NCBI GenBank assembly: GCA_964596095.1
Contig: CAZQUC010000001.1
Location: 833-64,832, forward strand
Reading direction: 5' to 3'
Origin: an uncultured Enterobacteriaceae bacterium
GTDB lineage: Bacteria > Verrucomicrobiota > Verrucomicrobiia > Verrucomicrobiales > V1-33
DNA: 64,000 nucleotides
Positions 7,523 to 35,824 of this stretch are shown in pieces. A program made the translations under genes and the position numbers. Within the stretch, counting starts at the first letter, position 1. Each line of letters opens with the position of its first letter. The notes below the pieces were generated by a model, which worked only from the letters and a program-made list of their open reading frames with translations, did no database searches and was not told the DNA's origin.

Positions 7523-10500
7523 TCAAGCTCCGTCCCAATCCAGCCCCAGCTCCCGCAACCGCTCGCGGAGGAACACCAGATCCCACACATGCGTGACATG
7601 CCCCTCGGTCGCGATGGCGAGGTGGCGTTCGGTGGGATCGAAGGCGAAGCCCGAAATGATAAAGGGCAGCGGGCTTTCCAGCGTGACCCGTTCGCGCAGG
7701 GTCGCGGCGTCGTAGAGCCGTGCCACGGTGCGGGTCCAGGCGAGGGCGAGCCAGCGGCCATCGGGTGAAAAGGCCACGGGGGACGACAGGTCGGAGCCTT
7801 GGGGGCGTTCGATGGCCGGACCTCGCTCGCCGGTTTCCGCATTCCAGAAGGTGACGGCGTCGATCCCGCCCACCACCAGCCAGCGACCATCGGGAGAGAA
7901 GGTGATATGCGGTCGCTTCAATCCGCCGGGGGTCTCCCATTTGAGCGCGCGGGCGGCGACATCCCACACCTGCACGTTGGCACCGTGCGGGAAAAATCCG
8001 GCCGCGACCAGATCGCCTTTGGGGCTGAGGGCCGTGTTGCGCACCGGCTGGGCGAACCGCAGCCAGCGCTCCGCGTCCCCCTGGCACACCACCACATTCT
8101 GCCCGAGCGGCCAGGCCAGGACCTGCGTTCCGTCGTGGACGGCCATCGCCCCATTGCCACCCGCGCGCGTGGTGAAAATCTTCCGCTCCGCGTCCGCAAA
8201 GCGCCAGCTTCCGTCAGCGGTGCGCGCCAGCGGGAAGGCCGCGGCGCCGGACAGACCAGCGGCGAGCAGCGAACCATCCGGAGCGAACGCCACGGACCGG
8301 CAGCCCGTGTGCGCGGCAAATCCCGTCAGCTCCCGCGTTGCCGTGTTCCACAGCCGCGCGCCATCATAGCCGGCGGTGGCCAGCGTGCGGCCATCGGCGT
8401 CAAAGGCCACCGCCACCGGACCTACCCTATTGCCCGGAGAGGTGGGCAGCTCGGGGTCGATCAAGTGGTGACAGGCCCGTGCCGCTTCCACCTCCAGCAA
8501 TTTCGCACGCTCATCCGCAGGCGTGTGCATGACAAGCCAGCGGCCGTCCGGGCTGAACCGCGGGCGCACGCCCCAGCCCTGCTCCACGATCAAGAGACCC
8601 AGCGACGGCGCGTCCCACAACCGCGTGGTGCCGTCCCAACTGGTGCTGGCGAGCAGGGAGCCGGACGGATGCCAGGCGAGGCCCACCACCGCATTGAGAT
8701 GGCCGCGCCCCGCGCGCAACAGCGACGGCCCGTGCGCCGTGATTTCCCAGACCCGCACCAGCCGGTCCACGCTCCCCGTGGCCAGAAACCGGCCATCCGG
8801 ACTCCACGCGGCATCCAGCACCGCTTCCGGATGCGAAACCCGGACGACCACCTTCCCCGTCAATGGCTCCACCACATCGATGGAAAGCGAACGGGGCGAT
8901 TGCAGTGCCAGCAGGTCGTGGCCCGGACGCCAGGCGAAGGATGAAACGGGCTGGTCCGCGGTCCAGCGGGCGAGTTCCCTGTCATTGGGCAAGTCAAAAA
9001 CCACCACTTCATTACCTCCGCCGGGCAAGGCCAGGCGTCCGGAGGTTTCCTCAAGCGCCGGCACCGCGATGGTTGTCACCGGCGGCAAAGCCAGCCGTAA
9101 TTCACCGGTCTCCAGATCCCAAACATCAAGCCCGGGGCGGTCCGTGCAGGCCGCCAGATAACGTCCTCTTTCACCCAGCACCATCAACCGGCTGATCCTG
9201 CCGCGCCCGGCTCCGTGGATTTCGGACGGTGCTTCCGCCCCGGAGATGATCTGCCGGAAGCCTCCTTCCGGCATGGTCCGCCATTCGACAGGCGCTCCGT
9301 TGCTTCCAAAGACACAGGCTTGCACGGGGGCAGGGGACCACGGGGCCGGCCGCACGTCGGCCAGCGCCAGCACCGCCGCCGCCTCGTCGCGCAAAGCAGG
9401 AGAGGCATCGTGCTCCACCGCTTCCCGCAAGGTTTCCCATGAGCCAAAACGAGCGCCGCTCCGCCCGCTGTGCCGCCCGGCGCGGATGCGCGCGAACTGG
9501 GCCTCGGCCAGTTGCTGCCGCGCCCCGGCCTCCGCGCGTTCGATGCGCTCCCGGGCCGCTTGCTCCGCGCGCCGCCGCGATTCGGTGACGCCCCACGCGC
9601 CGATCGCCAGCACCGTCGCCGCACCAACGGTCAGCCCGGTCCGGCTCAGCCACCGCACGCGTTTCTCCAGCCCGCGCACCCGGCGCACCGATTGCCCGCT
9701 GTGCAGCAAGGCCAGCTCCGCCTGCAAGGCCGCCGCCGAGACGTGGCGCTTTTTCCACTCCTCGTCACACGCCCGGTAGATGATCTCCATCAACTCGATC
9801 TGCGGCCCCTTGGTCGCATCGCCCACCCACGCGGGCGGCAGCCGCGGATAATCCAGCCGGTCACGGCCGGTGACCATTTCATAAAGCAGTTTGCCCAGCG
9901 CATACAGATCGGCCTGCGGCGTGCCGCTCCCCTCCACCGGCAAAAAACCCTCCGTCCCCACCAGCGAACGCGAGGCCGACGACTCCGCCACCAACCCGAT
10001 GTCCGCCAGCTTGGCCCGGCCGTTGACGAAGATGATGTTCGAGGGCTTCAGGTCGCGGTGGAGCAGCCCGCGCCCGTGCAGAAAGTCCAGCGCCCCCGTC
10101 AGCGATAACGCAATGTCCAGACACTCCGCCACCGGCAATGCCCCGCGCCTGTCGATTTCCGCGCGCAGCGTCCGCGGCCGATACGCCCTTGGGTCGATCC
10201 CCGCCGCGCCTCCTTCCACCGCATCGGCCAACTCCATCACATAGAAAAATCCTTCCCCGCCCGCCAGCCAGCCCGCGTGAAGGATTTGCACCAGCCCGTT
10301 GTGCGAGCGCGACACCGGCTCGAACCGCTGCAAGCCCGCCAGCTCGCGCTCGAACGGCTTCGCCCGCTCGAACGAATCCTGACGGATGATCTTCACCGCG
10401 CGAAACACCCCCATGATGTTCCGCGCCAGCCACACCTCGCCATAGCCGCCCCGCGCCACCCGCCGGAGCAGCTCGTGGTCCGGGATCACCGGCACGTCAT

Positions 10501-10546
10501 CCGCTTGAGAGCGATGGGGTAATGAGGCTGGGGGATCAATCCGCAT
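7523..10546 (-). CDS. Ser/Thr protein kinase with C-terminal WD40 beta-propeller sensor (type A, copy 1)
   Basis: 1007 aa. Kinase motifs ARGGYGEVW, FRAVKII, HRDLKPSNIIF, ADIGLV (DFG variant), TEGFLPVE. One TM (LTVGAATVLAIGAWGV). WD40 repeats include WSPDGRFLATGSVDRLVRVWE and STSWDGTTRLWD. Starts 20 nt after the sigma gene on the same strand. Confidence 0.9.
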   Translation of the reverse strand: MRIDPPASLPHRSQADDVPVIPDHELLRRVARGGYGEVWLARNIMGVFRAVKIIRQDSFERAKPFERELAGLQRFEPVSRSHNGLVQILHAGWLAGGEGFFYVMELADAVEGGAAGIDPRAYRPRTLRAEIDRRGALPVAECLDIALSLTGALDFLHGRGLLHRDLKPSNIIFVNGRAKLADIGLVAESSASRSLVGTEGFLPVEGSGTPQADLYALGKLLYEMVTGRDRLDYPRLPPAWVGDATKGPQIELMEIIYRACDEEWKKRHVSAAALQAELALLHSGQSVRRVRGLEKRVRWLSRTGLTVGAATVLAIGAWGVTESRRRAEQAARERIERAEAGARQQLAEAQFARIRAGRHSGRSGARFGSWETLREAVEHDASPALRDEAAAVLALADVRPAPWSPAPVQACVFGSNGAPVEWRTMPEGGFRQIISGAEAPSEIHGAGRGRISRLMVLGERGRYLAACTDRPGLDVWDLETGELRLALPPVTTIAVPALEETSGRLALPGGGNEVVVFDLPNDRELARWTADQPVSSFAWRPGHDLLALQSPRSLSIDVVEPLTGKVVVRVSHPEAVLDAAWSPDGRFLATGSVDRLVRVWEITAHGPSLLRAGRGHLNAVVGLAWHPSGSLLASTSWDGTTRLWDAPSLGLLIVEQGWGVRPRFSPDGRWLVMHTPADERAKLLEVEAARACHHLIDPELPTSPGNRVGPVAVAFDADGRTLATAGYDGARLWNTATRELTGFAAHTGCRSVAFAPDGSLLAAGLSGAAAFPLARTADGSWRFADAERKIFTTRAGGNGAMAVHDGTQVLAWPLGQNVVVCQGDAERWLRFAQPVRNTALSPKGDLVAAGFFPHGANVQVWDVAARALKWETPGGLKRPHITFSPDGRWLVVGGIDAVTFWNAETGERGPAIERPQGSDLSSPVAFSPDGRWLALAWTRTVARLYDAATLRERVTLESPLPFIISGFAFDPTERHLAIATEGHVTHVWDLVFLRERLRELGLDWDGA

Positions 10547-10566
10547 GTTTCCGTGGAAACAAAACC

Positions 10567-11181
10567 TCAGGTTCGCCCCTCGCGCAATGCCTCCATGTGC
10601 TGTTTAAGCAGTCGTGCGGTCCGGTGTTTGATCACATAGACCAGTCCGCGGTTGATGCCCAGCAGCCGCGCCACCTCCGAGGCCGGTTTCTCCTGCACCA
10701 CGCACAGATCAAACACCGCAAACTGCCGTGGCGGGATTTTTCGCTGCAACCATCTTATGGATTGCTCCAACAGATGGCGGTTCCACTCCTGCTCGTAGTG
10801 AGCATCCAGCTCATTGAGATGACCGGCATACGGCGTCTCATCCGGCAGCGGCCCCGCCTGCCGCACCGCCTGCCGCCGGAAAAAATCGACCACACGGCTG
10901 CGCACCACCGTTTTCAGCCACCCTTTGAACGACCCGCGCCTTGGATCGTAGCGGAAGTCCTTCATTCCCTTCGCCACCGCGATCAACACCTCCTGCGCCA
11001 CGTCCTCGGCCTCCGGCCCGCGCACGCCCGCCTTTTGCACGGCGCTGAGGATCAGTCCATGATAAGCTTCATAAAATTGGCTCCACCCCTTCTGGTCGTC
11101 CCAGTTTTTCAGCCGCGTGAGCAGGCTGCGCCGCGTCGGCAGTGAATCGGTCGGGGCTGGTGGTGCGGGCTCTTCCATCAT
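10567..11181 (-). CDS. ECF-type RNA polymerase sigma factor (type A, copy 1)
   Basis: 204 aa. N-terminus DSLPTRRSLLTRLKNWDDQKGWSQFYEAYHGLI. Region 2: EDVAQEVLIAVAKGMKDFRYDPRRGSFKGWLKTVV. Region 4 HTH: ASEVARLLGINRGLVYVIKHRTARLL. Confidence 0.9.
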   Translation of the reverse strand: MMEEPAPPAPTDSLPTRRSLLTRLKNWDDQKGWSQFYEAYHGLILSAVQKAGVRGPEAEDVAQEVLIAVAKGMKDFRYDPRRGSFKGWLKTVVRSRVVDFFRRQAVRQAGPLPDETPYAGHLNELDAHYEQEWNRHLLEQSIRWLQRKIPPRQFAVFDLCVVQEKPASEVARLLGINRGLVYVIKHRTARLLKQHMEALREGRT

Positions 11182-11213
11182 GCCTTGTCCGTTCCGGAAC
11201 GTCGCATCTTACA
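11182..11213 (-). promoter_or_regulatory. Conserved upstream element, copy at sigma A1 (TGTAAGAT box plus GAACGGACA)
   Basis: Minus strand: gttGTAAGATgcgacgttccGGAACGGACAaggcATG. An A-run (GAAAAAAAG) lies about 12 nt further upstream. The -10-like TAAGAT ends 24 nt before the ATG. Confidence 0.45.
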
Positions 11214-11218
11214 ACAAT

Positions 11219-22602: not shown

Positions 22603-22622
22603 GGCACCCCTTCCCCACGCTA

Positions 22623-22647
22623 AAATCCGGCAATCGTTACCGGATTT
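22623..22647. promoter_or_regulatory. 25-bp inverted repeat AAATCCGG-N9-CCGGATTT in a divergent promoter region
   Basis: Perfect 8-bp arms with a partly self-complementary spacer (caatcgtta). Lies between start 22602 (minus strand) and start 22721 (plus strand). Confidence 0.35.
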
Positions 22648-22720
22648 CGCGAATTTTTTTTGTCCGCCGCGACGGGTCGTCTGTAACATTCGCGCCGGGG
22701 TCGCGTGTCAGACTCAGAGG

Positions 22721-25700: not shown

Positions 25701-26305
25701 GCGGCCGCTTGCTCGCCGACTTGCCGCACCTGGACGCGGCCACGCCCCACGGGCTGCGCGGTGGCTTTTCCCGCGATGGAAAATCGCTCATCACCTGGGG
25801 TTCCGACGACCTGCGCGCGCGGCTGTGGGACGCCGCATCCGGGAAATCGCTCGGTCGTCCACTCGACCACCCGCACGGGCCGCATCTTTTCGCGCTCTCG
25901 CCGGATGCAGCGGTCGCCGTCTCCTGGTGCGCCGACGGCCGGACGCATCTGTTCAGCCTGCCGAGCCGCGAAGAAACCGCGCCACCGTTTCCAGCCAAAC
26001 AGAAAGCCACGGCTGTGGAATTCTCGACCGACGGTCGGCACCTGCTGCTCGCCTATACCGACGGGTCGCTCACGCTGCGGCCCGTCGCTCCGCGCCCGGA
26101 CCAGCCGCTGCCCGAGTGTTTCCTCATCTACGCCGAAGCCGCCGCGCGGTGCGCCCTCCAACCGGACAACTCTTTCTCCGAACCCGGCTTCGCCACCCTG
26201 CGCGCCGCCCGCGCGGAAGTCCTCGCCCTGCCGGGCGATTCCGAGACCGGGCGCTGGATGCGCTGGCTGGCCGAAAGCCGTCTCACCCGCGGCAAGCGAC
26301 CGTAG
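22721..26305 (+). CDS. Ser/Thr protein kinase with N-terminal Cys-rich tail and C-terminal WD40/beta-propeller sensor (type B, copy 1)
   Basis: ATG 22721 chosen (MNPHCLPICETCLRPVPPDSRSGLCPACLG). Kinase motifs GEGGSSLVYRV, AALKLL, HRDLKPGNVMV, DFGLA, GTLEYMSPEQ. TM (GTAAAVAAALAATAVIGV). Propeller repeats include GSTRDGVARLWRW and AGHDGTLRAW. Confidence 0.9.
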   Translation: MNPHCLPICETCLRPVPPDSRSGLCPACLGDALFGGDEAVLAAPGMPGMPERIGGHEVLGLAGEGGSSLVYRVRHGEGVAALKLLRAGLQGGPAAARFEAERQALAALDHPGIVRVLGSGRAEDGRAFLLMEWVEGETMSDFCRRERPDLGARLRLFSLLCEVVEAAHRGGVIHRDLKPGNVMVARDGQPKVIDFGLARAEDRLLAGPSLWTRADQLLGTLEYMSPEQAAGGAAGADTRTDVFGLGAVLYELLTGAPPLGGEALPPGGLEERLRRLREEEPPRPSTRASGLSPTERRRTRDELDWIALKALARRRERRYQSVSALREDIERFLRREAVAARPPSAGYLAAKFLRQHRGVAGTAAAVAAALAATAVIGVTSARREARARQETRTTFGKADAAAAAADLAAGRTGPAIAHLARALRSDPGNADAAFRLLMAMADGPVAIPAAPAVRHEETIFHVQFTGDGSRLLTGSTRDGVARLWRWEEGGAPEREFRLPGLVALSGSADGALIAGSTLGGRAQVWRIADGRALWAQPPEAADGGGMVRGCALSPDGARLFTAGHDGTLRAWRPGGEEIWRQTRPSRCLNVAVSANGSLVAGCFEDGTLLIRAAADGAPVGEAKLPGPLLKAGFLADGRLLAAAGLSAAQIFFPDGQPSGAAMPHRGRIYGASASPDGSRIVLEGDDGRAGLWSGDGRLLDVKVFPGSLYAGTVAPDGGLAAIGTREPDARLAIIRLRDGHSAGSPASFERSVHGLAWHPDGRHLAVASRTFSAQVFEVQPCRPDAPQTLLPAGDDPVVAAWLLPSEEKQENPTAPVPTTLALTASGVLWGWDGEGAPDHRHRFSAAVADTIKASDAAVAAVLTADGGLHFLTGDRAPVTVSPPAVPVRLAVAPDGALTAGIAADGQAWLWRTGDGAVVKSWRGPGDPSALAVGGGRVALATHAGGLEIHPQDGPTTSLSWRGAGPVLQLAFSPDGSRLFAGGADRRGQLLALPGGRLLADLPHLDAATPHGLRGGFSRDGKSLITWGSDDLRARLWDAASGKSLGRPLDHPHGPHLFALSPDAAVAVSWCADGRTHLFSLPSREETAPPFPAKQKATAVEFSTDGRHLLLAYTDGSLTLRPVAPRPDQPLPECFLIYAEAAARCALQPDNSFSEPGFATLRAARAEVLALPGDSETGRWMRWLAESRLTRGKRP

Positions 26306-26420
26306 CCCTAAAAATCCGGACTCCTTGGCCATCGCGACGCTTCCTGAACACCGCCCCGGCATAGAAAAACGCGCCACTTCGGGTTGGCGGGCGGCGTGAA
26401 CCCTCGCCAGGATTCCCGCC

Positions 26421-27158
26421 ATGCTCCGTGCCGACGAGGAAACCCTGCCGGACGCCAACCGTGCCCGGTTTCCGGACACGCGCTGGACCCTGCTCGACGC
26501 CGTGCGCGCGGGCGGTGAGACGCGTGAGCACGCGCTGAACGGTGTCTGCGCCCGCTATTGGTTCCCGCTCTATGCCTGGCTTCGGCGCTCGGGGCACAGC
26601 CACGAGGACGCGGAGGATCTGGTGCAATCGTTCCTCGCGCGCCTCACGGCCGGCGAAGCCTTCGACCGGCTCGAAAAGGAAGGCGCCCGCCTCCGCACCT
26701 GGCTGCTTCATCTGCTGAAGAATCATGTCATCAGCGCGTGGCGGCGCGACCGCACGCGGCGGCCTCATGGCGACTTCGAGGCGCCCCTCACCGGGGCCGG
26801 TCAACGCTACGCCGCCATCGCCGACGTCGGCGGAACGCCCGACGAGACCTTCGACCGGCAGTGGGCGCTGGAGATTCTCGACCGGGTGCTCGCCGCACTG
26901 CGGGCGTCCTACGCCGAGGCGGGGCGCGAGGAGTGGTTCGTGGCCTTGCAACCGGCGCTGCTGCAGACCGGCGCGCATGTCGGCTTTGCCGCGATCGCCG
27001 CGCGTCTCGCCATCACCGAGAATCTCGCCCGCGTGACCGCCTTCCGGATGCGCAAGCAACTGCGGCAAGGGATCGAGGACGAAATCCTGCGCCTCTCCGG
27101 AGGAGCCGATGCGGCAAAGGAGGAACTCGCCGTCTTCCGCGCCGCGCTCGCCCGTTAG
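26421..27158 (+). CDS. ECF-type RNA polymerase sigma factor (type B, copy 1; kinase-associated family)
   Basis: 245 aa. TRWTLLDAVRAGGETREHALNGVCARYWFPLYAWLRRSGHSHEDAEDLVQSFLARL is region 2. The C-terminal HTH is FAAIAARLAITENLARVTAFRMRKQLRQ. Directly downstream of the kinase gene. Confidence 0.85.
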   Translation: MLRADEETLPDANRARFPDTRWTLLDAVRAGGETREHALNGVCARYWFPLYAWLRRSGHSHEDAEDLVQSFLARLTAGEAFDRLEKEGARLRTWLLHLLKNHVISAWRRDRTRRPHGDFEAPLTGAGQRYAAIADVGGTPDETFDRQWALEILDRVLAALRASYAEAGREEWFVALQPALLQTGAHVGFAAIAARLAITENLARVTAFRMRKQLRQGIEDEILRLSGGADAAKEELAVFRAALAR

Positions 27159-27166
27159 GGCATGGA

Positions 27167-30154
27167 TCACCCCTCCCAATCCAGCCCCAGCCCGCGCAGG
27201 TGCCGGCGCAGGAAGGCGAGGTCCCACAGTTGGGTGAAATGCCCTTCGGTGGCGATGGCGAAATGGCGGCCATCGGGGGAAAAGGCGAAGCCGGAGATGA
27301 TGAAGGGCAGCGGGCTTTCCAGGGTGATCAGCTCGCGCTGCGTGGCGGTGTCATACACGCGCGCGACGGTGCGCGACCACGCCATCGCGAAGAGCCGGCC
27401 ATCGGGCGAGAAGGCGAGGGGCGCGCTGAGATCGTCGCGATGCGCGCGCGGGAAAACCGGGCCGCGCGCGCCGGTGTCCGCCTCCCACCACGACACCTCG
27501 GAACCCGCACCCAGCGCGCACCAGCGGCCATCAGGGGAAAAGGCCACCTGCGCCCGTCCGTAATCACGGGGTGTTTTCCAACGGAGTTTTCCGGTGCGCC
27601 AATCCCAGGTTCCGGCTTCGGCATTGGTGTGGTGGAAGCTGGCCGTCAGGAGTTTGCCGTCAGGACTGAGGACGGCGCGCCAGGCGGCGAGCGGTTGGGG
27701 GAGGCGATGCTCGGTTTCCTGCTGCCAGACCACCAGATCATCCCCCCCGGGCCAGGTGAAGAGCGGTCCTCCCGGCGTGTCGAGGCACGAGCCGAAGCCG
27801 ACCACTCCCCGCGGCGAGAACACCTGCGGCGCGGCTTGTGGTGCAAAGACCCATTCAGAACCATCCCGGCGCAGCGGATGGACGAGCGCGCCCCGCGCCC
27901 CCAGCGTGAAGAGCTTTCCTTCGGGGAGAAACGCGACGCTGGTGCAGCGGTCGCCTGGCAGGAAACCGGCCAGGTTCCGCCCGTCCGCGCTCCACAGCCG
28001 GACTCCGTCCTGGCTGGCGGTGGCGAGCGTGGAACTGTCGGCGCTGAACGCGACGCCGCGCGGCCCCACCGCATCTTCGCGGAAATCGTCCGGTTTCGGC
28101 TCGGTCAGCCAATGACAGGCGCGGGCGGATTCCACTTCAAACACTTCGGCGCTTTCATCCACGGGCGAGTGCTGGACCAGCCAGCGGCCGTCCTCGCTGA
28201 AGCTCGGGCGCATGCCCCAGCCAGGCGCGGAGACCAGCAGGCCGAGCGAAGGCGCGTCCCACAGCCGCGTGGTGCCGTCCCAACTGGCGGTGGCGAGCAG
28301 ATTTCCCTGTGGATGCCAGGCCACGCCGACCACCACGTTGTGGTGCCCGCTGCCTGTGCGCAGCACCACCGGCCGCGGACCGTCCGTGGCCCACACCCGC
28401 ACCAGACGGTCGAGGCCCGCGGTGGCGAGGCAGCGCCCGTCCGGACTCCAGGCCACATCCAGCACCGCTTCGGGATGCGGCAGCTCGCCCAGCGACGCGC
28501 CGTCGGCGGCGTTGAAAATCCCGACCGAGCGCGAGTGCAGGGACTGGATGGCCAGGGCCTTCCCGTCCGGCCGCCAGGCCAGCCCGTTCGCGCGCCACGG
28601 CGCCTCCCAGCGGGCCAGTTCCGCGCGGCGCGCCAGATCGTGAATGATCACGGTCTTCCCCTCCGCCGGAACGGCCAGCCGTCCACCGGTAATGTCCAGC
28701 GCGGGCTGTGCGGAGAGCGGCAGCTCCGGCAGTTCCAGCACCAATTCCTTCCGGCTCACCGCCCACACGTCCACGCCGGGCCGGTCCGTCCAGGCCGCGA
28801 CCAGATGGCCCGCCGCATCGAGAACCGTGAGGCGCGCCACCTTCCCCCTCTCCGCGCCCATGACCTCCGATTCCGCCGTGCCTTTGGCAGAGAAGCGCTG
28901 GAAGCCCCCGCCTTCGACCGCCCGCCATTGGGAAGGTTTCCCTTGTGCTCCAAAGGCCGCCGTTTGCGCCGGAGCTGGAGTCCACTCCACGGGCCGCCCA
29001 TCCGCCAGCGCCAGCACGGCGGCGGCTTCGTTGCGCAACGCCGGCGTCGGCTGCTCCCGCGCGGCCTCTTGCAGCGTGGCCCAGGAATCGAAACGGCAGC
29101 CGCTCTGCCCGCTGTGCCGGCCCGCGCGGATGCGCGCGAAGCGCGCCGCGGCCAGTTGCGTCCGGGCTGCCGCCTCCGCGTGTTCGATGCGTTCCCGTGC
29201 CTGCCGTTCACTCCGCCGCTGCCTCTCCGTGAGGCCCCACGCGCCCACCGCCAGCACCGTCGCCGCGCCCACCGCCAGGCCGGCCCGCGCCAGCCAGCGC
29301 ACCCGCCGCTCCAGCCCGCGCACGCGCCGCACGGACTGGCCGCTTTGCAACAGGGCCAGCTCCGCCTGCAAGGCTGCCGCTGATGCGTGCCGCTTTTTCC
29401 AGTCCTCATCACACGCCCGGTAAATAACCTCCATCATTTCGATCTGCGGCGCCTTCGTGGCGTCCCCCACCCAGGCCGCGGGCAGCGTCGGATACTCCAG
29501 CCGGTCGCGCCCGGTCATCATTTCATAAAGCAGCTTGCCCAGCGCGTAGAGATCGGCCTGCGGCGTGCCGCCCCCCTCCACCGGCATAAACCCCTCTGTG
29601 CCCACCAGCGAGCGCGATTCCGAGGATTCCGCCACCAGGCCGATGTCCGCGAGTTTGGCGCGCCCATTGACGAAGATGATGTTCGAGGGCTTCAAATCGC
29701 GGTGCAACAGGCCGCGCTCGTGCAGAAAATGCAGCGCCGCCACCAACGAGAGCGCGATGTCCAGGCACTCCGCCGCCGGCAGCGCCCCGCGCCGGTCGAT
29801 CTCGCGGCGCAGCGTGCGCGGCTGATACGTGGCGGGATCGAACTCCGTGCCGGCCTCCGCGTCATCCGCCAGCTCCATCACGTAAAAAAAGCCCTCATCG
29901 CCCGGCAGCCAGCCCGCGTGCAGAATCTGCACCAGCGATTCGTGGGAACGGGACACCGGCTCGAACCGTTGCAACCCCGCCAGCTCCCGCTCAAAGGGCC
30001 GCGCCCGCTCGAACGACTCCTGCCGGATGATCTTCACCGCGCGGAAAACCCCCATGATGTTCCGCGCCAGCCACACCTCGCCATAACTGCCGCGCGCCAC
30101 GCGCCGGAGCAATTCGTGGTCCGGGATCACTGGATGAGACGGCGGGTTTTCCAT
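27167..30154 (-). CDS. Ser/Thr protein kinase with C-terminal WD40 sensor (type A, copy 2; paralogue of 7523..10546)
   Basis: 995 aa. The kinase half is near-identical in motif order to copy 1 (ARGSYGEVW, FRAVKII, HRDLKPSNIIF, ADIGLV). The WD40 half is clearly more diverged. Shared C-terminus ...ESPLPFIISGFAF...IATEGH...WDL.FLR..LR.LGLDW. Confidence 0.9.
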   Translation of the reverse strand: MENPPSHPVIPDHELLRRVARGSYGEVWLARNIMGVFRAVKIIRQESFERARPFERELAGLQRFEPVSRSHESLVQILHAGWLPGDEGFFYVMELADDAEAGTEFDPATYQPRTLRREIDRRGALPAAECLDIALSLVAALHFLHERGLLHRDLKPSNIIFVNGRAKLADIGLVAESSESRSLVGTEGFMPVEGGGTPQADLYALGKLLYEMMTGRDRLEYPTLPAAWVGDATKAPQIEMMEVIYRACDEDWKKRHASAAALQAELALLQSGQSVRRVRGLERRVRWLARAGLAVGAATVLAVGAWGLTERQRRSERQARERIEHAEAAARTQLAAARFARIRAGRHSGQSGCRFDSWATLQEAAREQPTPALRNEAAAVLALADGRPVEWTPAPAQTAAFGAQGKPSQWRAVEGGGFQRFSAKGTAESEVMGAERGKVARLTVLDAAGHLVAAWTDRPGVDVWAVSRKELVLELPELPLSAQPALDITGGRLAVPAEGKTVIIHDLARRAELARWEAPWRANGLAWRPDGKALAIQSLHSRSVGIFNAADGASLGELPHPEAVLDVAWSPDGRCLATAGLDRLVRVWATDGPRPVVLRTGSGHHNVVVGVAWHPQGNLLATASWDGTTRLWDAPSLGLLVSAPGWGMRPSFSEDGRWLVQHSPVDESAEVFEVESARACHWLTEPKPDDFREDAVGPRGVAFSADSSTLATASQDGVRLWSADGRNLAGFLPGDRCTSVAFLPEGKLFTLGARGALVHPLRRDGSEWVFAPQAAPQVFSPRGVVGFGSCLDTPGGPLFTWPGGDDLVVWQQETEHRLPQPLAAWRAVLSPDGKLLTASFHHTNAEAGTWDWRTGKLRWKTPRDYGRAQVAFSPDGRWCALGAGSEVSWWEADTGARGPVFPRAHRDDLSAPLAFSPDGRLFAMAWSRTVARVYDTATQRELITLESPLPFIISGFAFSPDGRHFAIATEGHFTQLWDLAFLRRHLRGLGLDWEG

Positions 30155-30213: not shown

Positions 30214-30837
30214 TCAGCCGGGTTTGCCCTCGCCCAGGGTTTTCAACCGCTGTCGCAGCAGGCGCTCCGCGCGGTGCCTCACCACATACACCAGCCCTCG
30301 GTTGACACCCAGCAGCCGCGCCACCTCCGCCGCCGGCCGTTCCTGCAACACGCACAGATCGAAAATCGTGTATTGCCGCGGGGAAATCCGCCGCCGCAGC
30401 CATTGCAACGCCATCTCCAGCAAATGCCGCTCCCATTCCTGCTCATAGCGGTCCTCCATCGCCTCCAGCGGCTCCGCCTCCGCAGCCCCGGTTTCGACGT
30501 ATTCCCGCAGATGCGACCGCTCCCGCCCCTGCTTGCGGAGAAAATCCACCAACCGCCGGCGGACCACCGTTTTCAGCCAGCCTTTGAACGATCCTTTGGC
30601 CGGATCGTAATGAAACTCCTTCATGCCCCGCGCCACCGCCACCAGCGCCTCCTGCGCCACCTCCTCCGCGTCCGCCCCGCGCAATCCCGCATGACGCACC
30701 ATCGCCAGGATCAGGCCGTGGTAGGAATCATAAAACCGCTGCCACCCTTCCCGGTCATCCCAGCGTTTCAGCCGCGTCAACAGGCTGCGCCGGGTCGGCA
30801 AAGAGTCGGTCGAAGAGGAATGTGGCTCGTCCATCAT
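30214..30837 (-). CDS. ECF-type RNA polymerase sigma factor (type A, copy 2; paralogue of 10567..11181)
   Basis: Start set at ATG 30837 (MMDEPHSSSTDSLPTRRSLLTRLKRWDDREGW), matching the MMEEP start of copy 1. Regions 2 and 4 are conserved (EEVAQEALVAVARGMKEFHYDP..., AAEVARLLGVNRGLVYVVRHRAERLL). Confidence 0.9.
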   Translation of the reverse strand: MMDEPHSSSTDSLPTRRSLLTRLKRWDDREGWQRFYDSYHGLILAMVRHAGLRGADAEEVAQEALVAVARGMKEFHYDPAKGSFKGWLKTVVRRRLVDFLRKQGRERSHLREYVETGAAEAEPLEAMEDRYEQEWERHLLEMALQWLRRRISPRQYTIFDLCVLQERPAAEVARLLGVNRGLVYVVRHRAERLLRQRLKTLGEGKPG

Positions 30838-30870: not shown

Positions 30871-31007
30871 GGAAAATCGCCTGCCGCACCTTTATTTGGC
30901 GCGGGTTGCTACGGACCGCTGGATCGGCGATGGATCTGCGTGGAGAGAAATACCGGCTTGGACGGATGGTGAAAGCGGGCTATCTGTCTTGGAGTGCTGA
31001 ACCCCAC

Positions 31008-31733
31008 ATGACGGAAGAGAAACCAGCGACGTTGTTCGTGCCGACCCGATGGACGCTGGTGCGGGCCGCGGGCGGGCCGGAGGGCACGGCTTCGCGCCGG
31101 GCGCTGGCGGAGCTGTGCGGGACGTATTGGCTGCCGCTTTATGCCTATGTGCGGAGGCGGGGCCACTCTCCGCAAGATGCGGAGGATTTGACGCAGGGAT
31201 TTTTCGTCCGGCTGCTGCGCCTGCAATCGCTCAAGGGCTTGCAGGCAAAAAGCGGGAAGTTCCGGGCGTTCTTGCTCGCCTCGATGAAGCACTATCTGTC
31301 CGACGAGAGGGACAAGGAACGGGCCGCCCGGCGTGACGCGCGCGTGACCGTCTCCCTCGATGCCGGGGCCGCGGAGCAACGGCTGCAGCACGATCTGGCT
31401 GACGAGATGACGCCGGAGCGCCATTACGACCGCCAATGGGCGCTCACACTGCTCGAAACCGTGGTCGAGCGGCTGCGCGCGGAGCATCATGCGGCCGGGC
31501 GGGGGGCACTTTTCGATGCCTTGCGCTTCGTTATTGCGGGCGATGAAGGGGCGGAGCCTTACGCCGCGGTGGCAGCACGGCTGGGACTGAGCGAAGAAGC
31601 GGTCCGCGTGGCGGCGCACCGTCTGCGCAAGCGCTACCGCGCGGTGCTGCACGAGGAGATCGCCCAGACGCTGGATGATCCTTCCCAGGTCGCCGATGAG
31701 CTGCGGGAACTGCGCCGGAGCCTGGCTTCGTAA
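31008..31733 (+). CDS. ECF-type RNA polymerase sigma factor (type B, copy 2; kinase-associated family)
   Basis: Start at ATG 31008 (MTEEKPATLFVPTRWTLVRAAGGPEGTASRRALAELCGTYWLPLYAYVRRRGHSPQDAEDLTQGFFVRLL). C-terminal HTH YAAVAARLGLSEEAVRVAAHRLRKRYR. Confidence 0.85.
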   Translation: MTEEKPATLFVPTRWTLVRAAGGPEGTASRRALAELCGTYWLPLYAYVRRRGHSPQDAEDLTQGFFVRLLRLQSLKGLQAKSGKFRAFLLASMKHYLSDERDKERAARRDARVTVSLDAGAAEQRLQHDLADEMTPERHYDRQWALTLLETVVERLRAEHHAAGRGALFDALRFVIAGDEGAEPYAAVAARLGLSEEAVRVAAHRLRKRYRAVLHEEIAQTLDDPSQVADELRELRRSLAS

Positions 31734-31905: not shown

Positions 31906-32017
31906 CGTCCGTGACGGAGCCTCGTGGGCTTTCCCTCTTTCGTTTCCGCTGACGGCGGTTTCTTCCTCTTCAAGAGCGAATTCCTCAACCACTATCAAAA
32001 AAACAAGAACCAATAAA

Positions 32018-32662
32018 ATGAAAATCACTTCCACCGTTGCCGCCGCTCTCATCCTGTTTACTGCCGCAGGTAGTTCTAAGCTCAATGCTCAAGACGATCC
32101 CGCCGCCATGCGCGAACGCATCACCGCCCTTGAAAGGCGTTTGTCCGAGTTCGAAAGCAAAGAAGCCGATGAGAAATCCCATGTAAGACTCCGTGAGAAA
32201 AACAAACTCAACGCTCGCAAGCGCGCCTTGGAGGACAAGCGCCGCTACAAGCCGGATGAGATCGCCGAGATCGAAAGCCTCTATCAAGTCGCCAATAAGA
32301 AGTGGCGTTCCGACGAAGCCCGCGAAAGTCTGAAAAAGCTCCTGAAGAAATACGACGCGGCGAACCGCACGGGCTGCGCTCTGCTTTACATGGGACAGAT
32401 GAGCAAGGGGAAGGAGCGCATTGAATACCTTACCCGGGCGGTGGAGGAATTCAGCGATTGTTATTACTTCGACGGCTGCCAGGTCGGCGGATACGGACGC
32501 TATGTGCTGGCGCTGACCCTGTGGGAAAGTGGCGACAAGGACAAGGCGCTCGCCCTGCTCGGGGAGTTGCGGGAGAAATACAAGGAGGCCATCGATCACA
32601 AGGGGCGTCCCATGTCAGCCCTCGCAGACTCCGCTGAAAAAGAGCTTTCCGCAGAAAAGTGA
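32018..32662 (+). CDS. Secreted coiled-coil/TPR-like protein
   Basis: Start at ATG 32018 (MKITSTVAAALILFTAAGSSKLNAQ, signal peptide). Lys/Glu-rich coiled-coil, then a helical-repeat-like C-terminal half. Markedly lower GC (about 45-50% in sampled lines). Sits between the sigma and kinase genes. Confidence 0.7.
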   Translation: MKITSTVAAALILFTAAGSSKLNAQDDPAAMRERITALERRLSEFESKEADEKSHVRLREKNKLNARKRALEDKRRYKPDEIAEIESLYQVANKKWRSDEARESLKKLLKKYDAANRTGCALLYMGQMSKGKERIEYLTRAVEEFSDCYYFDGCQVGGYGRYVLALTLWESGDKDKALALLGELREKYKEAIDHKGRPMSALADSAEKELSAEK

Positions 32663-32725
32663 CCCGCTTCCGCTGCGACCACCCATATCTTCTCCTTTTC
32701 GGCGACACACACAATTCAAACTGCC

Positions 32726-35700
32726 ATGAGTGACGAGCCTCCGTCCCAGGACCAAACATCCCTTTGTCCGAAATGCCGCCGTCGTTTGGACGCGAGCCTG
32801 TTGATGGGTCTGTGCCCCGATTGCCTTCTGGCGGCGGGATTTTCCGCCGCACCGGAAACCGGAGGAGCAAGATCCTTCGACCCGCCCGCACCGGAGGATC
32901 TCGCGCCGGCGTTTCCCGAACTGGAAATTATCGAACTCCTCGGCCGTGGCGGAATGGGCGCCGTTTACAAAGCCCGCCAGCGGCGGCTGGACCGGCTGGT
33001 GGCGTTGAAAATTCTGCCGCCGGGCTTGGGGGACGATCCCTCCTTTGCCAGCCGCTTCGAACGCGAGGCCCGGGCGCTGGCGAAACTCCAGCACCCGAAC
33101 ATCGTCACCCTGTATGAATTCGGAGAAAGCACCGGGCAGTTCTACTTTCTGATGGAATACGTCGAGGGCGTGACCCTGCGGCAGTTGCTGAAAAAAGGCG
33201 GCCTTCCGCCACGCGAGGCGCTGGCCATCGTGGCGCAGGTGTGCGAGGCCCTGCAATTCGCCCACGAGCACGGCATCGTCCACCGCGACATCAAGCCGGA
33301 AAACATCCTCATCGACCGCAAGGGCGGCGTGAAGATCGCCGACTTCGGCGTCGTGAAGATCGTCGCCGGCGGGGAGGCTGACACCCTGGCAGCTTCCGTC
33401 GCCACGCCGGAGTTCGGCCAGACCGAGGCGGGGAAAGTCATCGGCACGCCGCCCTACATGGCGCCCGAGCAGAAGGAACATCCCGGTGATGTCGATCACC
33501 GCGCGGACGTGTATGCGCTGGGCGTGGTTTTCTACGAAATGCTCACCGGCGAGCTGCCCGGTCAGCCCATTGAGGTTCCTTCGGGAAAGATCGGGATCGA
33601 CGTGCGACTGGATGAGATCGTCCTGCGCGCGTTGGAGAAAGAACCCGCGCGGCGCTACCAGGAAGTCCGTGAAATGCGGACGAACGTTGAGACGATCGCC
33701 TCGACGCCCGAAGCCGGCAGGCCTTCCGGGAAGGCTGTCAAAGGCGGGGACTCGCGGAAGCTGTCGCGTCAATGGATGGGTGCTGTCGGAGGAGCGATGC
33801 TGGTCGGCACGCTCATTGCGGTTCTAATGCTGGCTTTGGGTCACTTCACGGCTGCGCTCGCCATCTTCGCCTCCGCGATTTCGTTCGCTGTTGTCTTTGC
33901 GGCGACCCGTTTGCTCATAGCACAAGAGCAGGCAACCATAGACAACGGTGATCCCGCGGAGTTTAACCGGGTTTCCGGAAAACGTATCCTGGCCTGGAGC
34001 GCGGCCGGCCTGCTGATTGCGGCTCTTGGCGTCGGCATGGTCGTTGTGGTGGCCGGAAAGCAGGAACTCCTCCGCCTGGCTGGAATGGCGATGGAAGCCG
34101 CGCCGCGTCATCCCATCAGGTCCGCGGCTCCGGAGCCGGTGGAATCCGCGACGGCGGCGGATGTCGAAGACGCGCTCCGCACCGCGATCACCGCCCGCAT
34201 GCGTGACGCGGGTTACGCCCCGGAATCGGTCTCCGTTTACGTCACCCCCGATTTGAAGAAAGCCGAATGCCGGCTGGGCAAGGTGTCAAAAGGAGGGTTG
34301 TTCTCGGAACCTTGGAACGGCTCATTTGAATTGCAGCCTCAAGGAGGCAATGCCTGGCGGGTGGAAGGCAAAGGAGAACTCCGCGCGCTGAAGTTTTCCG
34401 TAAACGTGCCCCCGGCAGGGCTCGGAGATTCCCTCCCGGAACGCGGCAACACCGAAGCCCGGATACGCTTTTCCGCAGAAAGGCAACTCTCGCTGGTGGA
34501 GGTCGCCGAGCGCGGCCAATTCCAACTGCTGAACCTGAACACTGGCGAATTCGAGCCTCTGCCGACGGACTTCCCGCAAAAATCCGACGAGGAACAGCAG
34601 CAATGGGTCCTGGAGAGCGGTGCGGATCTCATGCTGAGCCACTTTCCCAACGGGGATTGGGGATTGTTCACCATCGAGTCGAAAGCCGTCGAACTCGTCA
34701 AAGTTGACGACACACTCTGGCGGCAGGAGGGAATCGACACCGGGGAATTTGCGCGCCTGCTGAACTCCCCGCCGATGGCCTCGAAGAGCCTCAAGGGATT
34801 TCTCGGCTACGTGCTGAGCCGCGACCCCGAGCTGCCCATGACCTTCCTCTACCGGACCGCCGCCGGAACCACCGGGCTGCTCCAGATCACGGAGTTCACG
34901 AAAAATCCGCGTGCCGCCGAACTTCGTTTGAAGATTGCCGAAATCCCGCCCGGCGCTCTCAAGAAAAGCGTTTGGGAAATCGAAAAGGAATTCACCCTGT
35001 CGGCCATCGGCGGAGACTCTCCATCCCGGTTTCTGAATTTGCGCACCGGAGAATTCATTCCCCCTCCGGCTGATGTCGGAAGCTGGCCGGATGAGGACCT
35101 GAAGCAGTGGATGACACAGAATCCGGAGGTTCTCATCCTCACCCGGAAAGGCGACAGAGGATGGGAGCTGATCACCTACATCAAGCCGAATCAGGGCACC
35201 AGATTCCTCAAGATCGACGAACACCACTGGGAAGAGAAAAGCATTGATCAGGAAGAATTGATTCGCCTGATGACAACGCCAGAGAGCCTGCCCGTGGCGG
35301 GGGCTCCTCAAAGGGAAACAACAAGCCGGGGTTTTGTAACCCGAAGCGTAATGGTCTGGCCGGCGACTTTCCTTTTCCGCAGCCATGCCGGTATCACGAG
35401 TCTTCTCAGAATCGAGGAAATCACGGACCTTCCCGGCTCGGCAAAAATCATTCTCCGCACTCCCAAACGGGAAAGAAAAACCGAAATCGTTCCCGGGAAG
35501 GAGACTAAGCTCAAGGCTCCATCACCCGAGCTGCAAAGAGCGGTGGAGCGATTGGAGCAGGTGAGGAAACTGGCGGACGCCAACATGATTTCGCGGATGG
35601 AACTGCTCAAGGAGGAAGAGAAAGAGGCGTTGCTCCGGGCGAAAGAGGAAGGGAGCCCCGCACCCGCCATCGCCGCCATCAAGGTGCGCTTTGCCCGAGA

Positions 35701-35824
35701 GCGTCTGGAGCGGAAACAAGCCCACTTCGATGCCGGAATCATTCCCAAAGCCGAGATCGACGCCGCCCAAAGCGAACTCAGAAACGCCGAGGCCGAGATG
35801 GAGCAAGCATCCGGTCAAAACTGA
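32726..35824 (+). CDS. Ser/Thr protein kinase with CxxC..CxxC tail, three TM helices, duplicated extracytoplasmic domain and C-terminal coiled coil (type B, copy 2)
   Basis: 1032 aa. [22 protein letters not shown]. Kinase motifs [45 protein letters not shown] segments at about aa 352-445. Two units of about 165 aa (aa 577-737 and 745-912). The Glu/Lys/Ala coiled-coil tail is shared with the next gene. Confidence 0.9.
34454..35461 (+). repeat. Tandem duplicated sensor domain inside the kinase (two units of about 165 aa)
   Basis: Unit 1: ...[20 protein letters not shown]...[13 protein letters not shown]...WGLFTIES...VKVDDTLW...[21 protein letters not shown]...ELRLKI. Unit 2: ...[19 protein letters not shown]...[14 protein letters not shown]...WELITYIK...LKIDEHHW...[21 protein letters not shown]...KIILRT. 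Confidence 0.75.
35471..35815 (+). repeat. Copy 1 of a roughly 350-bp direct repeat encoding a shared C-terminal coiled-coil module
   Basis: [12 protein letters not shown]...[71 protein letters not shown] matches 36329..36697. About 80-85% nucleotide identity by eye over the core. Confidence 0.8.

What the first reader, a model, noticed from the sequence alone, without database searches (positions are those of the whole stretch)
7523..35824. Four ECF sigma / Ser/Thr kinase modules in 28 kb, none with an anti-sigma factor
Modules:
- A1: sigma 10567..11181 followed by WD40 kinase 7523..10546 (minus strand, 20-nt gap).
- B1: WD40 kinase 22721..26305 followed by sigma 26421..27158 (plus strand).
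- A2: sigma 30214..30837 followed by WD40 kinase 27167..30154 (minus strand).
- B2: sigma 31008..31733, then secreted coiled-coil protein, then kinase 32726..35824 (plus strand).

B1, A2 and B2 are packed end to end. There are 8 bp between the convergent stops at 27158 and 27167, and 170 bp between the divergent sigma starts at 30837 and 31008. There are two sigma types. Type A begins DSLPTRRSLLTRLK.WDD..GW. Type B begins TRWTL[LV]...AL..LC..YW.PLYA[WY][LV]RR.GHS..DAEDL.Q.F. Type B kinases alone carry an N-terminal CxxC...CxxC tail.

No ZAS-type or other membrane anti-sigma gene is adjacent to any of the four. Kinase-linked ECFs (the ECF43-type context in the Staron classification) are thought to be controlled by phosphorylation instead of sequestration. 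The only worked example I know is EcfP/PknT in Vibrio parahaemolyticus. This locus offers four natural sigma/kinase pairs of two architectures, with large extracytoplasmic propeller sensors of unknown ligand.
Basis: partly seen in the sequence, partly recalled or inferred. Interest (0 to 1): 0.6.

Follow-up and report, generated by a model that had tools for sequence, protein, structure and literature searches.

The report
Four kinase-linked ECF sigma factor modules
Four pairs of an alternative sigma-factor gene and a membrane Ser/Thr-kinase gene lie within 28 kb of a Verrucomicrobial genome. The pairs are real and are conserved as pairs in many relatives, but they belong to an already described kind of signalling system whose molecular switch is still unknown.

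Summary
Four ECF sigma genes and four Hanks-type kinase genes lie at the stated coordinates, paired one to one, and the 64-kb window holds no fifth copy.

Both pair types are conserved elsewhere:
- Type A (Verrucomicrobiota): a type-A-like kinase lies near the sigma in 31 of 37 evaluable loci.
- Type B: a kinase lies near the sigma in 37 of 46 evaluable loci. In the reverse direction, 5 of 6 kinases have a type-B sigma directly upstream. The family has 5,867 cluster representatives at E<=1e-30.

The N-terminal CPxC-x12-CPxC motif is present in 51 of 52 type-B-linked kinases and in none of 33 type-A-linked kinases. No third gene is co-conserved, so no adjacent anti-sigma factor exists.

The interpretation needs correction:
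- These are not ECF43-type. All four sigmas keep the acidic sigma-2.2 motif that ECF43/EcfP lacks.
- A sigma followed by a one-TM kinase with WD40 repeats and an N-terminal zinc finger is already described for group ECF62 in Planctomycetes.
- EcfK/PknS is a second worked example.
- The four-module cluster is not conserved in close relatives.

Verdict: new members of a known kind, in an under-classified phylum. The phospho-switch is unknown. A candidate is the invariant N-terminal T-R-x-[S/T] motif that both sigma types share.

The parts
10567..11181 (-). sigA1, type-A ECF sigma factor (204 aa)
   Evidence: Sigma70_r2 6e-14, TIGR02937 1e-24. 61% identical to sigA2.
7523..10546 (-). kinA1, type-A Hanks kinase: N-terminal kinase domain, one hydrophobic segment near aa 302-320, C-terminal WD40 propeller region. 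No Cys motif.
   Evidence: Pkinase 1.7e-19, WD40 7.9e-35. 63.5% identical to kinA2. Orthologue in L124.
11116..11136 (-). sigA1 N-terminal T16-R-R-S19-L-L-T22 motif (candidate phospho-acceptor; inferred)
   Evidence: T-[RQE]-x-[ST]-L in 120/120 type-A homologues. T16 invariant in alignment A1.
22721..26305 (+). kinB1, type-B Hanks kinase with N-terminal Cys motif, one TM (aa 358-376) and WD40 region. Here the kinase precedes the sigma.
   Evidence: Pkinase 4.7e-32, WD40 4.4e-23. TM scan.
22745..22804 (+). kinB1 CxxC-x12-CxxC (C9..C28), zinc-ribbon-like motif
   Evidence: Sequence. Motif in 51/52 type-B-linked kinases and in 113/120 kinase homologues.
26421..27158 (+). sigB1, type-B ECF sigma (245 aa) with long sigma2-sigma4 linker and a C-terminal helix after sigma4
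   Evidence: Sigma70_r2 2.3e-8. AF2 model pLDDT 78.7. Best structural matches are ECF sigmas.
26478..26489 (+). sigB1 T20-R-W-T23 motif at the N-cap of the first sigma2 helix
   Evidence: T-x-W-[ST] in 120/120 and 142/149 homologues and 85/85. Helix starts at residue 21 in the AF2 model.
27167..30154 (-). kinA2, type-A Hanks kinase with WD40 region, TM aa 291-309
   Evidence: Pkinase 3.8e-23, WD40 1.5e-28. TM scan.
30214..30837 (-). sigA2, type-A ECF sigma (207 aa)
   Evidence: Sigma70_r2 7.9e-15.
30775..30795 (-). sigA2 T15-R-R-S-L-L-T21 motif
   Evidence: Sequence. Conservation as for sigA1.
31008..31733 (+). sigB2, type-B ECF sigma (241 aa). A database gene call starts at 30930; the orthologue supports 31008.
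   Evidence: Sigma70_r2 3.4e-7. 86% identical orthologue in L123, with homology starting at 31034.
31044..31055 (+). sigB2 T13-R-W-T16 motif
32015..32662 (+). Secreted 215-aa protein with coiled coil and weak TPR-like C-terminus, inserted between sigB2 and kinB2. Not an anti-sigma factor.
   Evidence: Signal-peptide-like start MKITSTVAAALILF. L123 gene call is 214 aa, and the upstream 76 codons are in another frame there. TPR hits are below threshold.
32726..35824 (+). kinB2, type-B Hanks kinase with N-terminal Cys motif, 2-3 TM segments, two tandem ~150-aa repeats of unknown fold and a C-terminal coiled coil. No WD40.
   Evidence: Pkinase 1.3e-51. TM scan. Internal repeat E 5e-21. 91% identical orthologue in L123.
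32765..32824 (+). kinB2 CPKC-x12-CPDC (C14..C33), zinc-ribbon-like motif
   Evidence: Sequence. Sub-threshold Zn_ribbon hit. Family conservation.
3542..7454 (-). Three genes of unknown function directly downstream of kinA1, on the same strand. They may be co-transcribed or be targets of the module; this is uncertain.
   Evidence: The same three genes follow the A1 orthologue in L124/L125 at 86-97% aa identity. Homologues of the first two lie near type-A sigmas in 4 further loci.

Best explanation
The locus holds four independent transmembrane signalling modules. Each is a dedicated pair of a membrane Hanks-type Ser/Thr kinase (the input) and an ECF sigma factor (the output), and each stands where a sigma/anti-sigma pair would normally stand.

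The modules belong to two families:
- Type A is restricted to Verrucomicrobiota. The sigma is followed by a kinase built of kinase domain, one TM segment and WD40 repeats.
- Type B is very large and is found in Verrucomicrobiota, Planctomycetia and other phyla. The invariant core is the sigma plus a kinase with an N-terminal four-Cys zinc-ribbon-like motif and a kinase domain. The C-terminal sensor domain is exchangeable.

The most likely mechanism is as follows. The extracytoplasmic domain senses a cue and the cytoplasmic kinase domain is activated. The kinase then phosphorylates its partner sigma and so licenses it for transcription.

All four sigmas keep the acidic sigma-2.2 motif. The switch therefore cannot be the ECF43/EcfP mechanism, in which phospho-Thr replaces a missing DAED. 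It must lie elsewhere. My candidate is the invariant N-terminal T-R-x-[S/T] motif at the start of the first sigma2 helix, which both sigma types share. The long sigma2-sigma4 linker, as in EcfK T106, is the alternative.

What is shown: gene pairs, family-specific pairing, synteny in both directions, absence of a third partner, intact catalytic motifs, retained acidic motif. What is inferred: that the sigma is the kinase's substrate, the direction of the effect, and the site.
For: Pairing and paralogy in the window.

Synteny from the sigma side:
- Type A: kinase directly downstream on the same strand in 25/41 loci, median gap 57 bp. A kinase lies somewhere in the locus in 31/37 evaluable loci.
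- Type B: 43/83 directly downstream, plus 9 with the kinase upstream as in B1, median gap 112 bp. A kinase lies somewhere in the locus in 37/46 evaluable loci.

Synteny from the kinase side: 5 of 6 kinases chosen only by kinase homology have a type-B sigma 50-98 bp upstream.

Family-specific pairing: the Cys motif is in 51/52 type-B-linked and 0/33 type-A-linked kinases, and in 113/120 kinase homologues, the rest being truncated gene calls.

Sensor swapping on a constant core: DUF4019, Wzz/GNVR, SecDF_P1_head or no known domain in 10 sampled type-B kinases, and WD40 in B1.

Only sigma and kinase are co-conserved in the flanks.

A subclade of type B has an ECF-like promoter about 60 bp upstream of the sigma gene, in 14/83 loci against at most 5 in shuffles. 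This suggests an autoregulated sigma-kinase operon, which is the usual ECF logic.

The acidic motif is retained.

The T-R-x-[ST] motif is in 120/120 type-A homologues. T-x-W-[ST] is in 120/120, 142/149 and 85/85 type-B sets. In the AF2 model it sits at the border between a low-confidence N-terminal tail and helix 1.

Precedent for direct sigma phosphorylation by the adjacent kinase: EcfP/PknT and EcfK/PknS.
Against: - No experiment exists for these or any DAED-retaining kinase-linked group.
- With the acidic motif intact, the sigmas may bind core RNA polymerase without phosphorylation. What keeps them off is then unexplained.
- About 16-20% of evaluable loci have the sigma without a nearby kinase.
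- In L122 the B1-orthologous sigma is intact, but its kinase is 5 kb away, on the other strand and split over at least 3 frames.
- Hanks kinases usually have several substrates (PMC13147305).
- A Thr at a helix N-cap can be conserved for structural reasons alone.
- The invariance of the motif in the type-A locus set is partly by construction, because the scan pattern was TRRSLLTRL. The protein-search sets are not affected in this way.
Confidence: 0.55

Rival explanations
1. The kinase is itself the anti-sigma factor. Its cytoplasmic part holds the sigma at the membrane. In type B the N-terminal zinc-ribbon-like motif with the kinase domain would do this; in type A the kinase domain alone. Signal-induced autophosphorylation, or phosphorylation of the sigma, then releases it. 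Phosphorylation would control sequestration rather than affinity for RNA polymerase.
For: - The sigmas keep the acidic sigma-2.2 motif, so something must restrain them, and no other partner is co-conserved.
- The kinase occupies the +1 position of a classical anti-sigma gene, with short gaps.
- A Cys-rich N-terminal module directly next to a sigma gene recalls zinc-binding anti-sigma domains.
- It is nearly invariant in type-B kinases while the sensors vary.
- Type-B sigmas carry a near-invariant Cys in sigma-2.1.
Against: - The Cys motif spans about 20 residues and has no detectable similarity to anti-sigma domains. It gives only sub-threshold zinc-ribbon hits.
- Type-A kinases have no extra N-terminal module at all.
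- There is no interaction evidence, and multimer modelling was not possible with these tools.
Confidence: 0.2
2. Adjacency reflects co-expression only. The sigma drives transcription of the operon, including the kinase, but the kinase acts on other substrates. The sigma would be controlled transcriptionally or by an unlinked regulator.
For: - Hanks kinases are commonly multi-substrate.
- Sigma without kinase occurs in 16-20% of evaluable loci.
- In L122 an intact sigma sits with a fragmented, displaced kinase.
- The acidic motif is intact.
- A putative autoregulated promoter is present in a subclade.
Against: - Sigma type tracks kinase-domain type strictly while the sensor domains are shuffled.
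- Synteny holds from the kinase side too, in 5 of 6 cases.
- The two experimentally studied kinase-linked ECFs are direct substrates of the adjacent kinase.
Confidence: 0.15
3. These are ECF43/EcfP-type sigmas. They would be intrinsically inactive for lack of negative charge in sigma-2.2 and would be activated by phospho-Thr at that position.
For: Kinase adjacency and lack of an anti-sigma gene are shared with ECF43.
Against: - All four keep the acidic motif: PEAED, ADAEE, EDAED, QDAED.
- Across the families it reads E-A-[QE]-[DE] in type A and D-A-[EQ]-D in type B, and it aligns to DAEDLTQ of SigE.
- No Sigma70_ECF (PF07638) hit was found for any of the four. That PF07638 marks ECF43 is from my memory.
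Confidence: 0.03

Closest known systems
ECF62 (formerly ECFSTK4) of Planctomycetes, Casas-Pastor et al. classification (bioRxiv 10.1101/2019.12.11.873521, supplementary text and table)
   Same: - The sigma has no anti-sigma factor.
- A protein kinase usually sits at +1 with one TM helix.
- The kinase is fused to WD40 repeats in the largest subgroups.
- The kinase has an N-terminal zinc finger.
- A TPR protein occurs in the context.
- Type B matches on the Zn motif and +1 position in relatives, B1 on WD40, and B2 on a weak TPR-like neighbour.
- A Planctomycetia member of type B was found (L128).
   Different: - ECF62 was reported as 100% Planctomycetes. The window and most relatives here are Verrucomicrobiota.
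- In the window the kinase is at -1 (B1) or +2 (B2).
- No WD40 was found in 10 sampled type-B kinases.
- Type A has WD40 but no Zn finger, so it does not fit the ECF62 description.
- Membership by the ECF Hub HMM was not testable.
ECF43: EcfP/PknT (Vibrio parahaemolyticus) and EcfK/PknS (Xanthomonas citri)
   Same: An ECF sigma sits next to a transmembrane Hanks kinase, with no anti-sigma factor. The kinase phosphorylates the sigma directly to activate it.
   Different: - ECF43 lacks the DAED motif; EcfP has STTA there. The phospho-Thr replaces the missing charge.
- The sigmas here keep the acidic motif.
- EcfK also needs linker phosphorylation at T106. A linker site remains possible here but is untested.
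ECF59 / ECF217 / ECF61 (Planctomycetes) and ECF283 (Ser/Thr-rich linker)
   Same: These are kinase-linked ECF groups without anti-sigma factors. In ECF283 the predicted phosphosite is in the linker, not in sigma-2.2.
   Different: - ECF59 kinases have six TM helices or TPR domains, and ECF61 kinases have five or more TM helices at position -2.
- ECF59 is reported to have a Ser in place of the acidic motif (PMC8103513).
- None is described with the T-R-x-[S/T] N-terminal motif.
[quoted passage not shown]
   Same: The operon logic is the same: the sigma comes first, and a single-pass membrane protein with an extracytoplasmic sensor, a propeller in ECF266, comes next.
   Different: The cytoplasmic part here is a catalytically intact protein kinase, not an anti-sigma domain.

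Membership tests
ECF (group 4) sigma factors | Sigma2 and sigma4 domains only, 200-250 aa | tested here: met
   Sigma70_r2 is above threshold in all four. Sigma70_r4_2 is just below threshold (it was not detected in sigB1). TIGR02937 scores 53-89 bits against a cut-off of 42.9. Profile hits to solved ECF sigmas. The AF2 model matches AlgU, SigH and SigE.
Kinase-linked ECF sigma factors (general kind) | Conserved Hanks kinase in the immediate neighbourhood and no co-encoded anti-sigma factor | tested here: met
ECF43 (EcfP/EcfK type) | Acidic DAED motif of sigma-2.2 replaced by uncharged residues with a phosphorylatable Thr | tested here: not met
   The motif is retained in all four sigmas and across both families. 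The defining feature is taken from PMC8999054.
ECF43 (EcfP/EcfK type) | Score above the ECF43 HMM threshold of ECF Hub | not testable with these tools
   The ECF Hub models are not available here.
ECF62 | Kinase with an N-terminal zinc finger | tested here: met
   Met for type B only: CxxC-x12-CxxC in kinB1 and kinB2, and in 51/52 linked kinases. Not met for type A (0/33).
ECF62 | Kinase at +1 with one TM helix, fused to WD40 in the main subgroups | tested here: inconclusive
   The +1 position holds in most relatives, but in the window the kinase is at -1 (B1) or +2 (B2). B1 has one TM and WD40. B2 has 2-3 TM segments and no WD40. None of 10 sampled relatives has WD40.
ECF62 | Sigma scores above the ECF62 HMM trusted threshold; taxonomy Planctomycetes | not testable with these tools
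   The HMM is not available. The taxonomy differs (Verrucomicrobiota), although a Planctomycetia member exists.
Zinc-binding anti-sigma (ZAS) partner | Adjacent gene with an HxxxCxxC anti-sigma domain | tested here: not met
   No free coding space lies next to any sigma. No third conserved ORF family in 121 loci. The neighbours are secreted proteins.

The most novel reading that the evidence does not exclude
Kinase-linked ECF sigmas that keep the acidic sigma-2.2 motif may use a switch not yet described. One possibility is phosphorylation of the invariant N-terminal T-R-x-[S/T] motif at the start of sigma2, which two otherwise distant sigma families share at only 26% identity. Another is tethering by the kinase, with its four-Cys N-terminal module acting as a sigma dock. 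Type A would then be a Verrucomicrobiota-specific ECF group that is absent from the current classification.
Probability: 0.25. Interest if true: 0.6.

Novelty: new member of a known kind. Interest (0 to 1): 0.3.

Why it matters
Direct control of sigma factors by Ser/Thr kinases has been worked out only for ECF43, where phospho-Thr replaces a missing acidic motif. How kinase-linked sigmas that keep that motif are controlled is an acknowledged open question (PMC8999054).

The type-B family is very large, with thousands of clusters across several phyla. Type A is widespread in Verrucomicrobiota, a phylum that is nearly absent from the kinase-linked groups of the ECF classification.

This locus gives two paralogous type-A pairs and two divergent type-B pairs in one genome. 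That makes it a convenient test bed for substrate specificity and cross-talk, and for mapping the phosphosite. It does not reveal a new kind of system.

Tried and rejected
- **ECF43 assignment.** Rejected because the acidic motif is retained.
- **The 291-aa ORF between sigB2 and kinB2 as an anti-sigma factor** (76-aa cytoplasmic part, TM segment, periplasmic part). Rejected. The close relative L123 calls a 214-aa gene, and the upstream 76 codons lie in another frame there.
- **The 888-aa neighbour of kinB1 as a regulator.** Rejected. It has a signal peptide and looks like a secreted repeat protein.
- **A conserved third partner.** An all-against-all clustering of ORFs in 121 loci found only sigma, kinase and their antisense shadow ORFs.
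- **Promoter search for the window's own modules.** A dyad, TGTAAC-N15-CGGTAAT, is enriched in a type-B subclade but is absent from the window. The type-A dyads were not above shuffles.
- **Conservation of the four-module cluster.** Not found. The B2 orthologue has a two-component system upstream. The A1 orthologue has different upstream genes. The B1 orthologue is separated from its kinase.
- **Subfamily models.** NCBIfam gave only generic ECF hits.
- **Papers.** Jogler 2012 and Iyer 2020 are not held.
- **Structure.** The AF2 model of sigB1 gave only domain-level confirmation, because coordinates cannot be inspected.
- **Phosphatase.** No PP2C-like gene was found in the window, using a query recalled from memory.

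Full report
**Observation**

- The four small proteins are ECF sigma factors. All four have Sigma70_r2 above threshold. Sigma70_r4_2 is just below threshold where detected (it was not detected in sigB1). TIGR02937 scores 53-89 bits against a cut-off of 42.9.
- The four large proteins are Hanks-type kinases, with Pkinase E-values from 1e-19 to 1e-51. The catalytic Lys, HRD and D[FI]G motifs can be read in the translations.
- kinA1, kinA2 and kinB1 carry WD40 repeats. kinB2 does not.
- A1 and A2 are whole-module paralogues: sigma 61% identical, kinase 63.5%. B1 and B2 are more distant: sigma 35%, kinase domain 33%.
- tblastn finds no further sigma or kinase in the 64 kb.
- All stated gaps are correct: 20, 115 and 59 nt, 8 bp between the convergent stops, and 170 bp between the divergent starts.
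- Given four sigmas and four kinases among about 50 genes, one-to-one pairing within two genes has a chance of about 1e-3.

**No adjacent anti-sigma factor**

No unassigned stretch of 300 bp or more lies beside any sigma. The neighbours are these:

- The ORF between sigB2 and kinB2 could be read as a short cytoplasmic part, a TM segment and a periplasmic part. The 91%-identical relative L123 calls a 214-aa gene that starts at the signal-peptide Met, and its upstream 76 codons lie in another frame. The protein is therefore secreted. Its TPR hits are weak.
- The 888-aa divergent neighbour of kinB1 has a signal peptide.
- TrkA and TrkH lie upstream of sigA1.

I clustered all ORFs within -3 to +5 kb of the sigma in 121 related loci. 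Only the sigma, the kinase and their antisense shadow ORFs came out as conserved families.

**Are the pairs conserved?**

Type A:
- Type-A sigma homologues, at 40-46% identity, are almost all from Verrucomicrobiota.
- In 41 genome loci a type-A-like kinase lies directly downstream on the same strand in 25, with a median gap of 57 bp. Its kinase domain is 44-56% identical to kinA1.
- The kinase lies upstream in 4 loci and is convergent in 3.
- Among the 37 loci with at least 1.2 kb of downstream sequence, 31 have the kinase somewhere in the locus.

Type B:
- The family is far larger: 5,867 cluster representatives at E<=1e-30 in an exhaustive search, and at least 597 metagenome loci in a capped scan.
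- Of 83 sigma copies in 80 loci, 43 have the kinase directly downstream, with a median gap of 112 bp. Nine have it upstream, as in B1.
- 37 of 46 evaluable copies have a kinase in the locus.
Five have a type-B sigma 50-98 bp upstream, one of them in a Planctomycetia genome.

**Family-specific features**

- The N-terminal CPxC-x12-CPxC motif is in 51 of 52 type-B-linked kinases and in none of 33 type-A-linked kinases. It is in 113 of 120 kinase homologues, and the remaining seven are N-terminally truncated gene calls.
- The C-terminal domains of type-B kinases vary: DUF4019, Wzz/GNVR, SecDF_P1_head, or none known. None of the ten I sampled has WD40, so the propeller of B1 is one sensor option among many.
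- The invariant core of type B is therefore the sigma, the Cys motif and the kinase domain. This is what one expects if the sigma is the fixed output of the kinase.
- A subclade of type B has an ECF-like dyad, TGTAACAAC...CGGTAAT, about 60 bp upstream of the sigma start. It occurs in 14 of 83 loci against at most 5 in shuffles. This suggests an autoregulated sigma-kinase operon. The dyad is absent from the window.

**What they are not**

ECF43, the group of EcfP and EcfK, is defined by loss of the acidic DAED motif in sigma-2.2. Phospho-Thr restores the missing charge (PMC8999054; PMC8103513).

All four sigmas here keep the motif: PEAED, ADAEE, EDAED and QDAED. Across the families it reads E-A-[QE]-[DE] in type A and D-A-[EQ]-D in type B. 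It aligns with DAEDLTQ of M. tuberculosis SigE. The EcfP mechanism therefore does not apply.

**What is already known**

- Kinase-linked ECF groups without anti-sigma factors are catalogued as ECF43, ECF59-62, ECF217, ECF267 and ECF283 (PMC7826278).
- The supplementary text of that study describes ECF62 as follows: a kinase usually at +1, one TM helix, WD40 repeats in subgroups s1 and s2, an N-terminal zinc finger in s1-s3, and a TPR protein in the context. It lists the group as 100% Planctomycetes.
Type B looks ECF62-like and extends that kind into Verrucomicrobiota and beyond.
- Type A has WD40 but no zinc finger and is Verrucomicrobiota-specific. It fits no published description that I could read. 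I could not run the ECF Hub HMMs.
- The reviews state that groups keeping the acidic motif may work differently and remain uncharacterised. I found no later experimental work on them.
- EcfK/PknS is a second worked example. It is phosphorylated at T51 and also in the sigma2-sigma4 linker at T106.

**Mechanism**

I consider direct phosphorylation of the partner sigma most likely (confidence 0.55), at a site other than sigma-2.2.

Both sigma types share an N-terminal T-R-x-[S/T]-L motif, although they are only 26% identical overall:
- Type A has TRRSLLTRL. T-[RQE]-x-[ST]-L occurs in 120 of 120 homologues.
- Type B has T-[RH]-W-[ST]. It occurs in 120 of 120, 142 of 149 and 85 of 85 sequences in three sets.

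The first Thr is never replaced by Ser, Asp or Asn, which a pure helix N-cap would tolerate. That last point is my inference. In the AF2 model of sigB1 (pLDDT 78.7) the motif sits at the junction of a low-confidence tail and helix 1.

Two caveats apply. The type-A locus set was fetched with the pattern TRRSLLTRL, so only the protein-search sets count for type A. And structural conservation alone is not excluded.

The rival explanations are:
- The kinase acts as a tether, like an anti-sigma factor (0.2). This is attractive because the acidic motif is intact and type B has an extra Cys module, but nothing supports it directly.
- The genes are merely co-expressed (0.15).
- The sigmas are ECF43-type (0.03).

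**The cluster itself**

The four-module cluster is not conserved.
- The B2 orthologue in L123 has 86% sigma, 96% secreted-protein and 91% kinase identity. [quoted passage not shown] DNA homology with the window starts at sigma codon 9.
- The A1 orthologue in L124/L125 shares three downstream genes at 86-97% identity. Its sigma is only 71% identical, its kinase domain 84% and its propeller 66%, and its upstream genes are different.
- The B1 orthologue in L122 has an intact sigma, but its kinase is 5 kb away, on the other strand and split over at least three frames.
- Two modules within 16 kb recur in other type-B loci: L045, L064 and L103.

The cluster therefore looks like local accumulation of fast-evolving, frequently rearranged cassettes. 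It does not look like a functional super-operon.

**Verdict**

It is wrong on the ECF43 label and on how much is already known. I rate these as new members of a known kind. The remaining interest is the unsolved switch in sigmas that keep the acidic motif.

Noticed in passing
window 35444-35824 versus 36299-36700: The C-terminal coiled-coil tail of kinB2 (aa 907-1028) is 58% identical to the C-terminal half of the next ORF (35882-36733, 283 aa, no Pfam hit). This looks like a local partial duplication.
   Followed up: no
window about 34520-35500 (kinB2 aa ~600-924): The presumed sensor region of kinB2 holds two tandem repeats of about 150 aa with unknown fold. They are 32% identical (E 5e-21) and have no Pfam match.
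   Followed up: partly
window 3542-11181 versus L124/L125: The three genes downstream of kinA1 are 86-97% identical to those in a close relative, one copy of which comes from a Nepal human-gut metagenome. In the same comparison sigA1 is 71% identical, the kinase domain 84% and the propeller 66%. Homology with relatives breaks right at the 5' ends of the sigma genes, so the modules evolve and rearrange faster than their flanks.
   Followed up: partly
L044-L096 (14 loci), about 60 bp upstream of type-B sigma starts: A conserved dyad, TGTAACAAC-N-CGTTTCCGGTAAT, looks like an autoregulated ECF promoter. It occurs in 14 of 83 loci against at most 5 in shuffles, and it is absent from the window.
   Followed up: partly
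L122 1400-4930: The orthologue of kinB1 in a related Verrucomicrobiales MAG is split over at least three reading frames and lies 5 kb from the intact sigB1 orthologue. It is either a pseudogene or an assembly error.
   Followed up: no
window 26547-26549 (sigB1 C43) and 31116-31118 (sigB2 C37): Type-B sigmas carry a near-invariant Cys in sigma-2.1. The pattern C..YW.P occurs in 119/120 and 130/149 homologues. Together with the four-Cys motif of the partner kinase, this might point to metal or redox chemistry. It was not tested.
   Followed up: no
window 22000-30000 versus 32000-38000: G+C is 0.69-0.73 over the B1 and A2 modules but 0.585-0.60 over the B2 module and the genes after it. The modules may have different origins, or the Ala/Gly/Arg-rich propellers may raise the G+C.
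   Followed up: no
window 851-3289, 14576-16987, 42695-43528, 44013-45428, 55388-60247: The window is rich in large secreted or surface-type proteins: InlB B-repeat, cadherin-like/Big_9, LRR_5 and DUF7453 (1,619 aa). It also has several long ORFs with no Pfam hit, at 45693-49706 and 50894-54004.
   Followed up: no
L029 10821-14788: Two tandem type-A kinases lie convergent to a single type-A sigma. This shows duplication of a kinase without its sigma.
   Followed up: no
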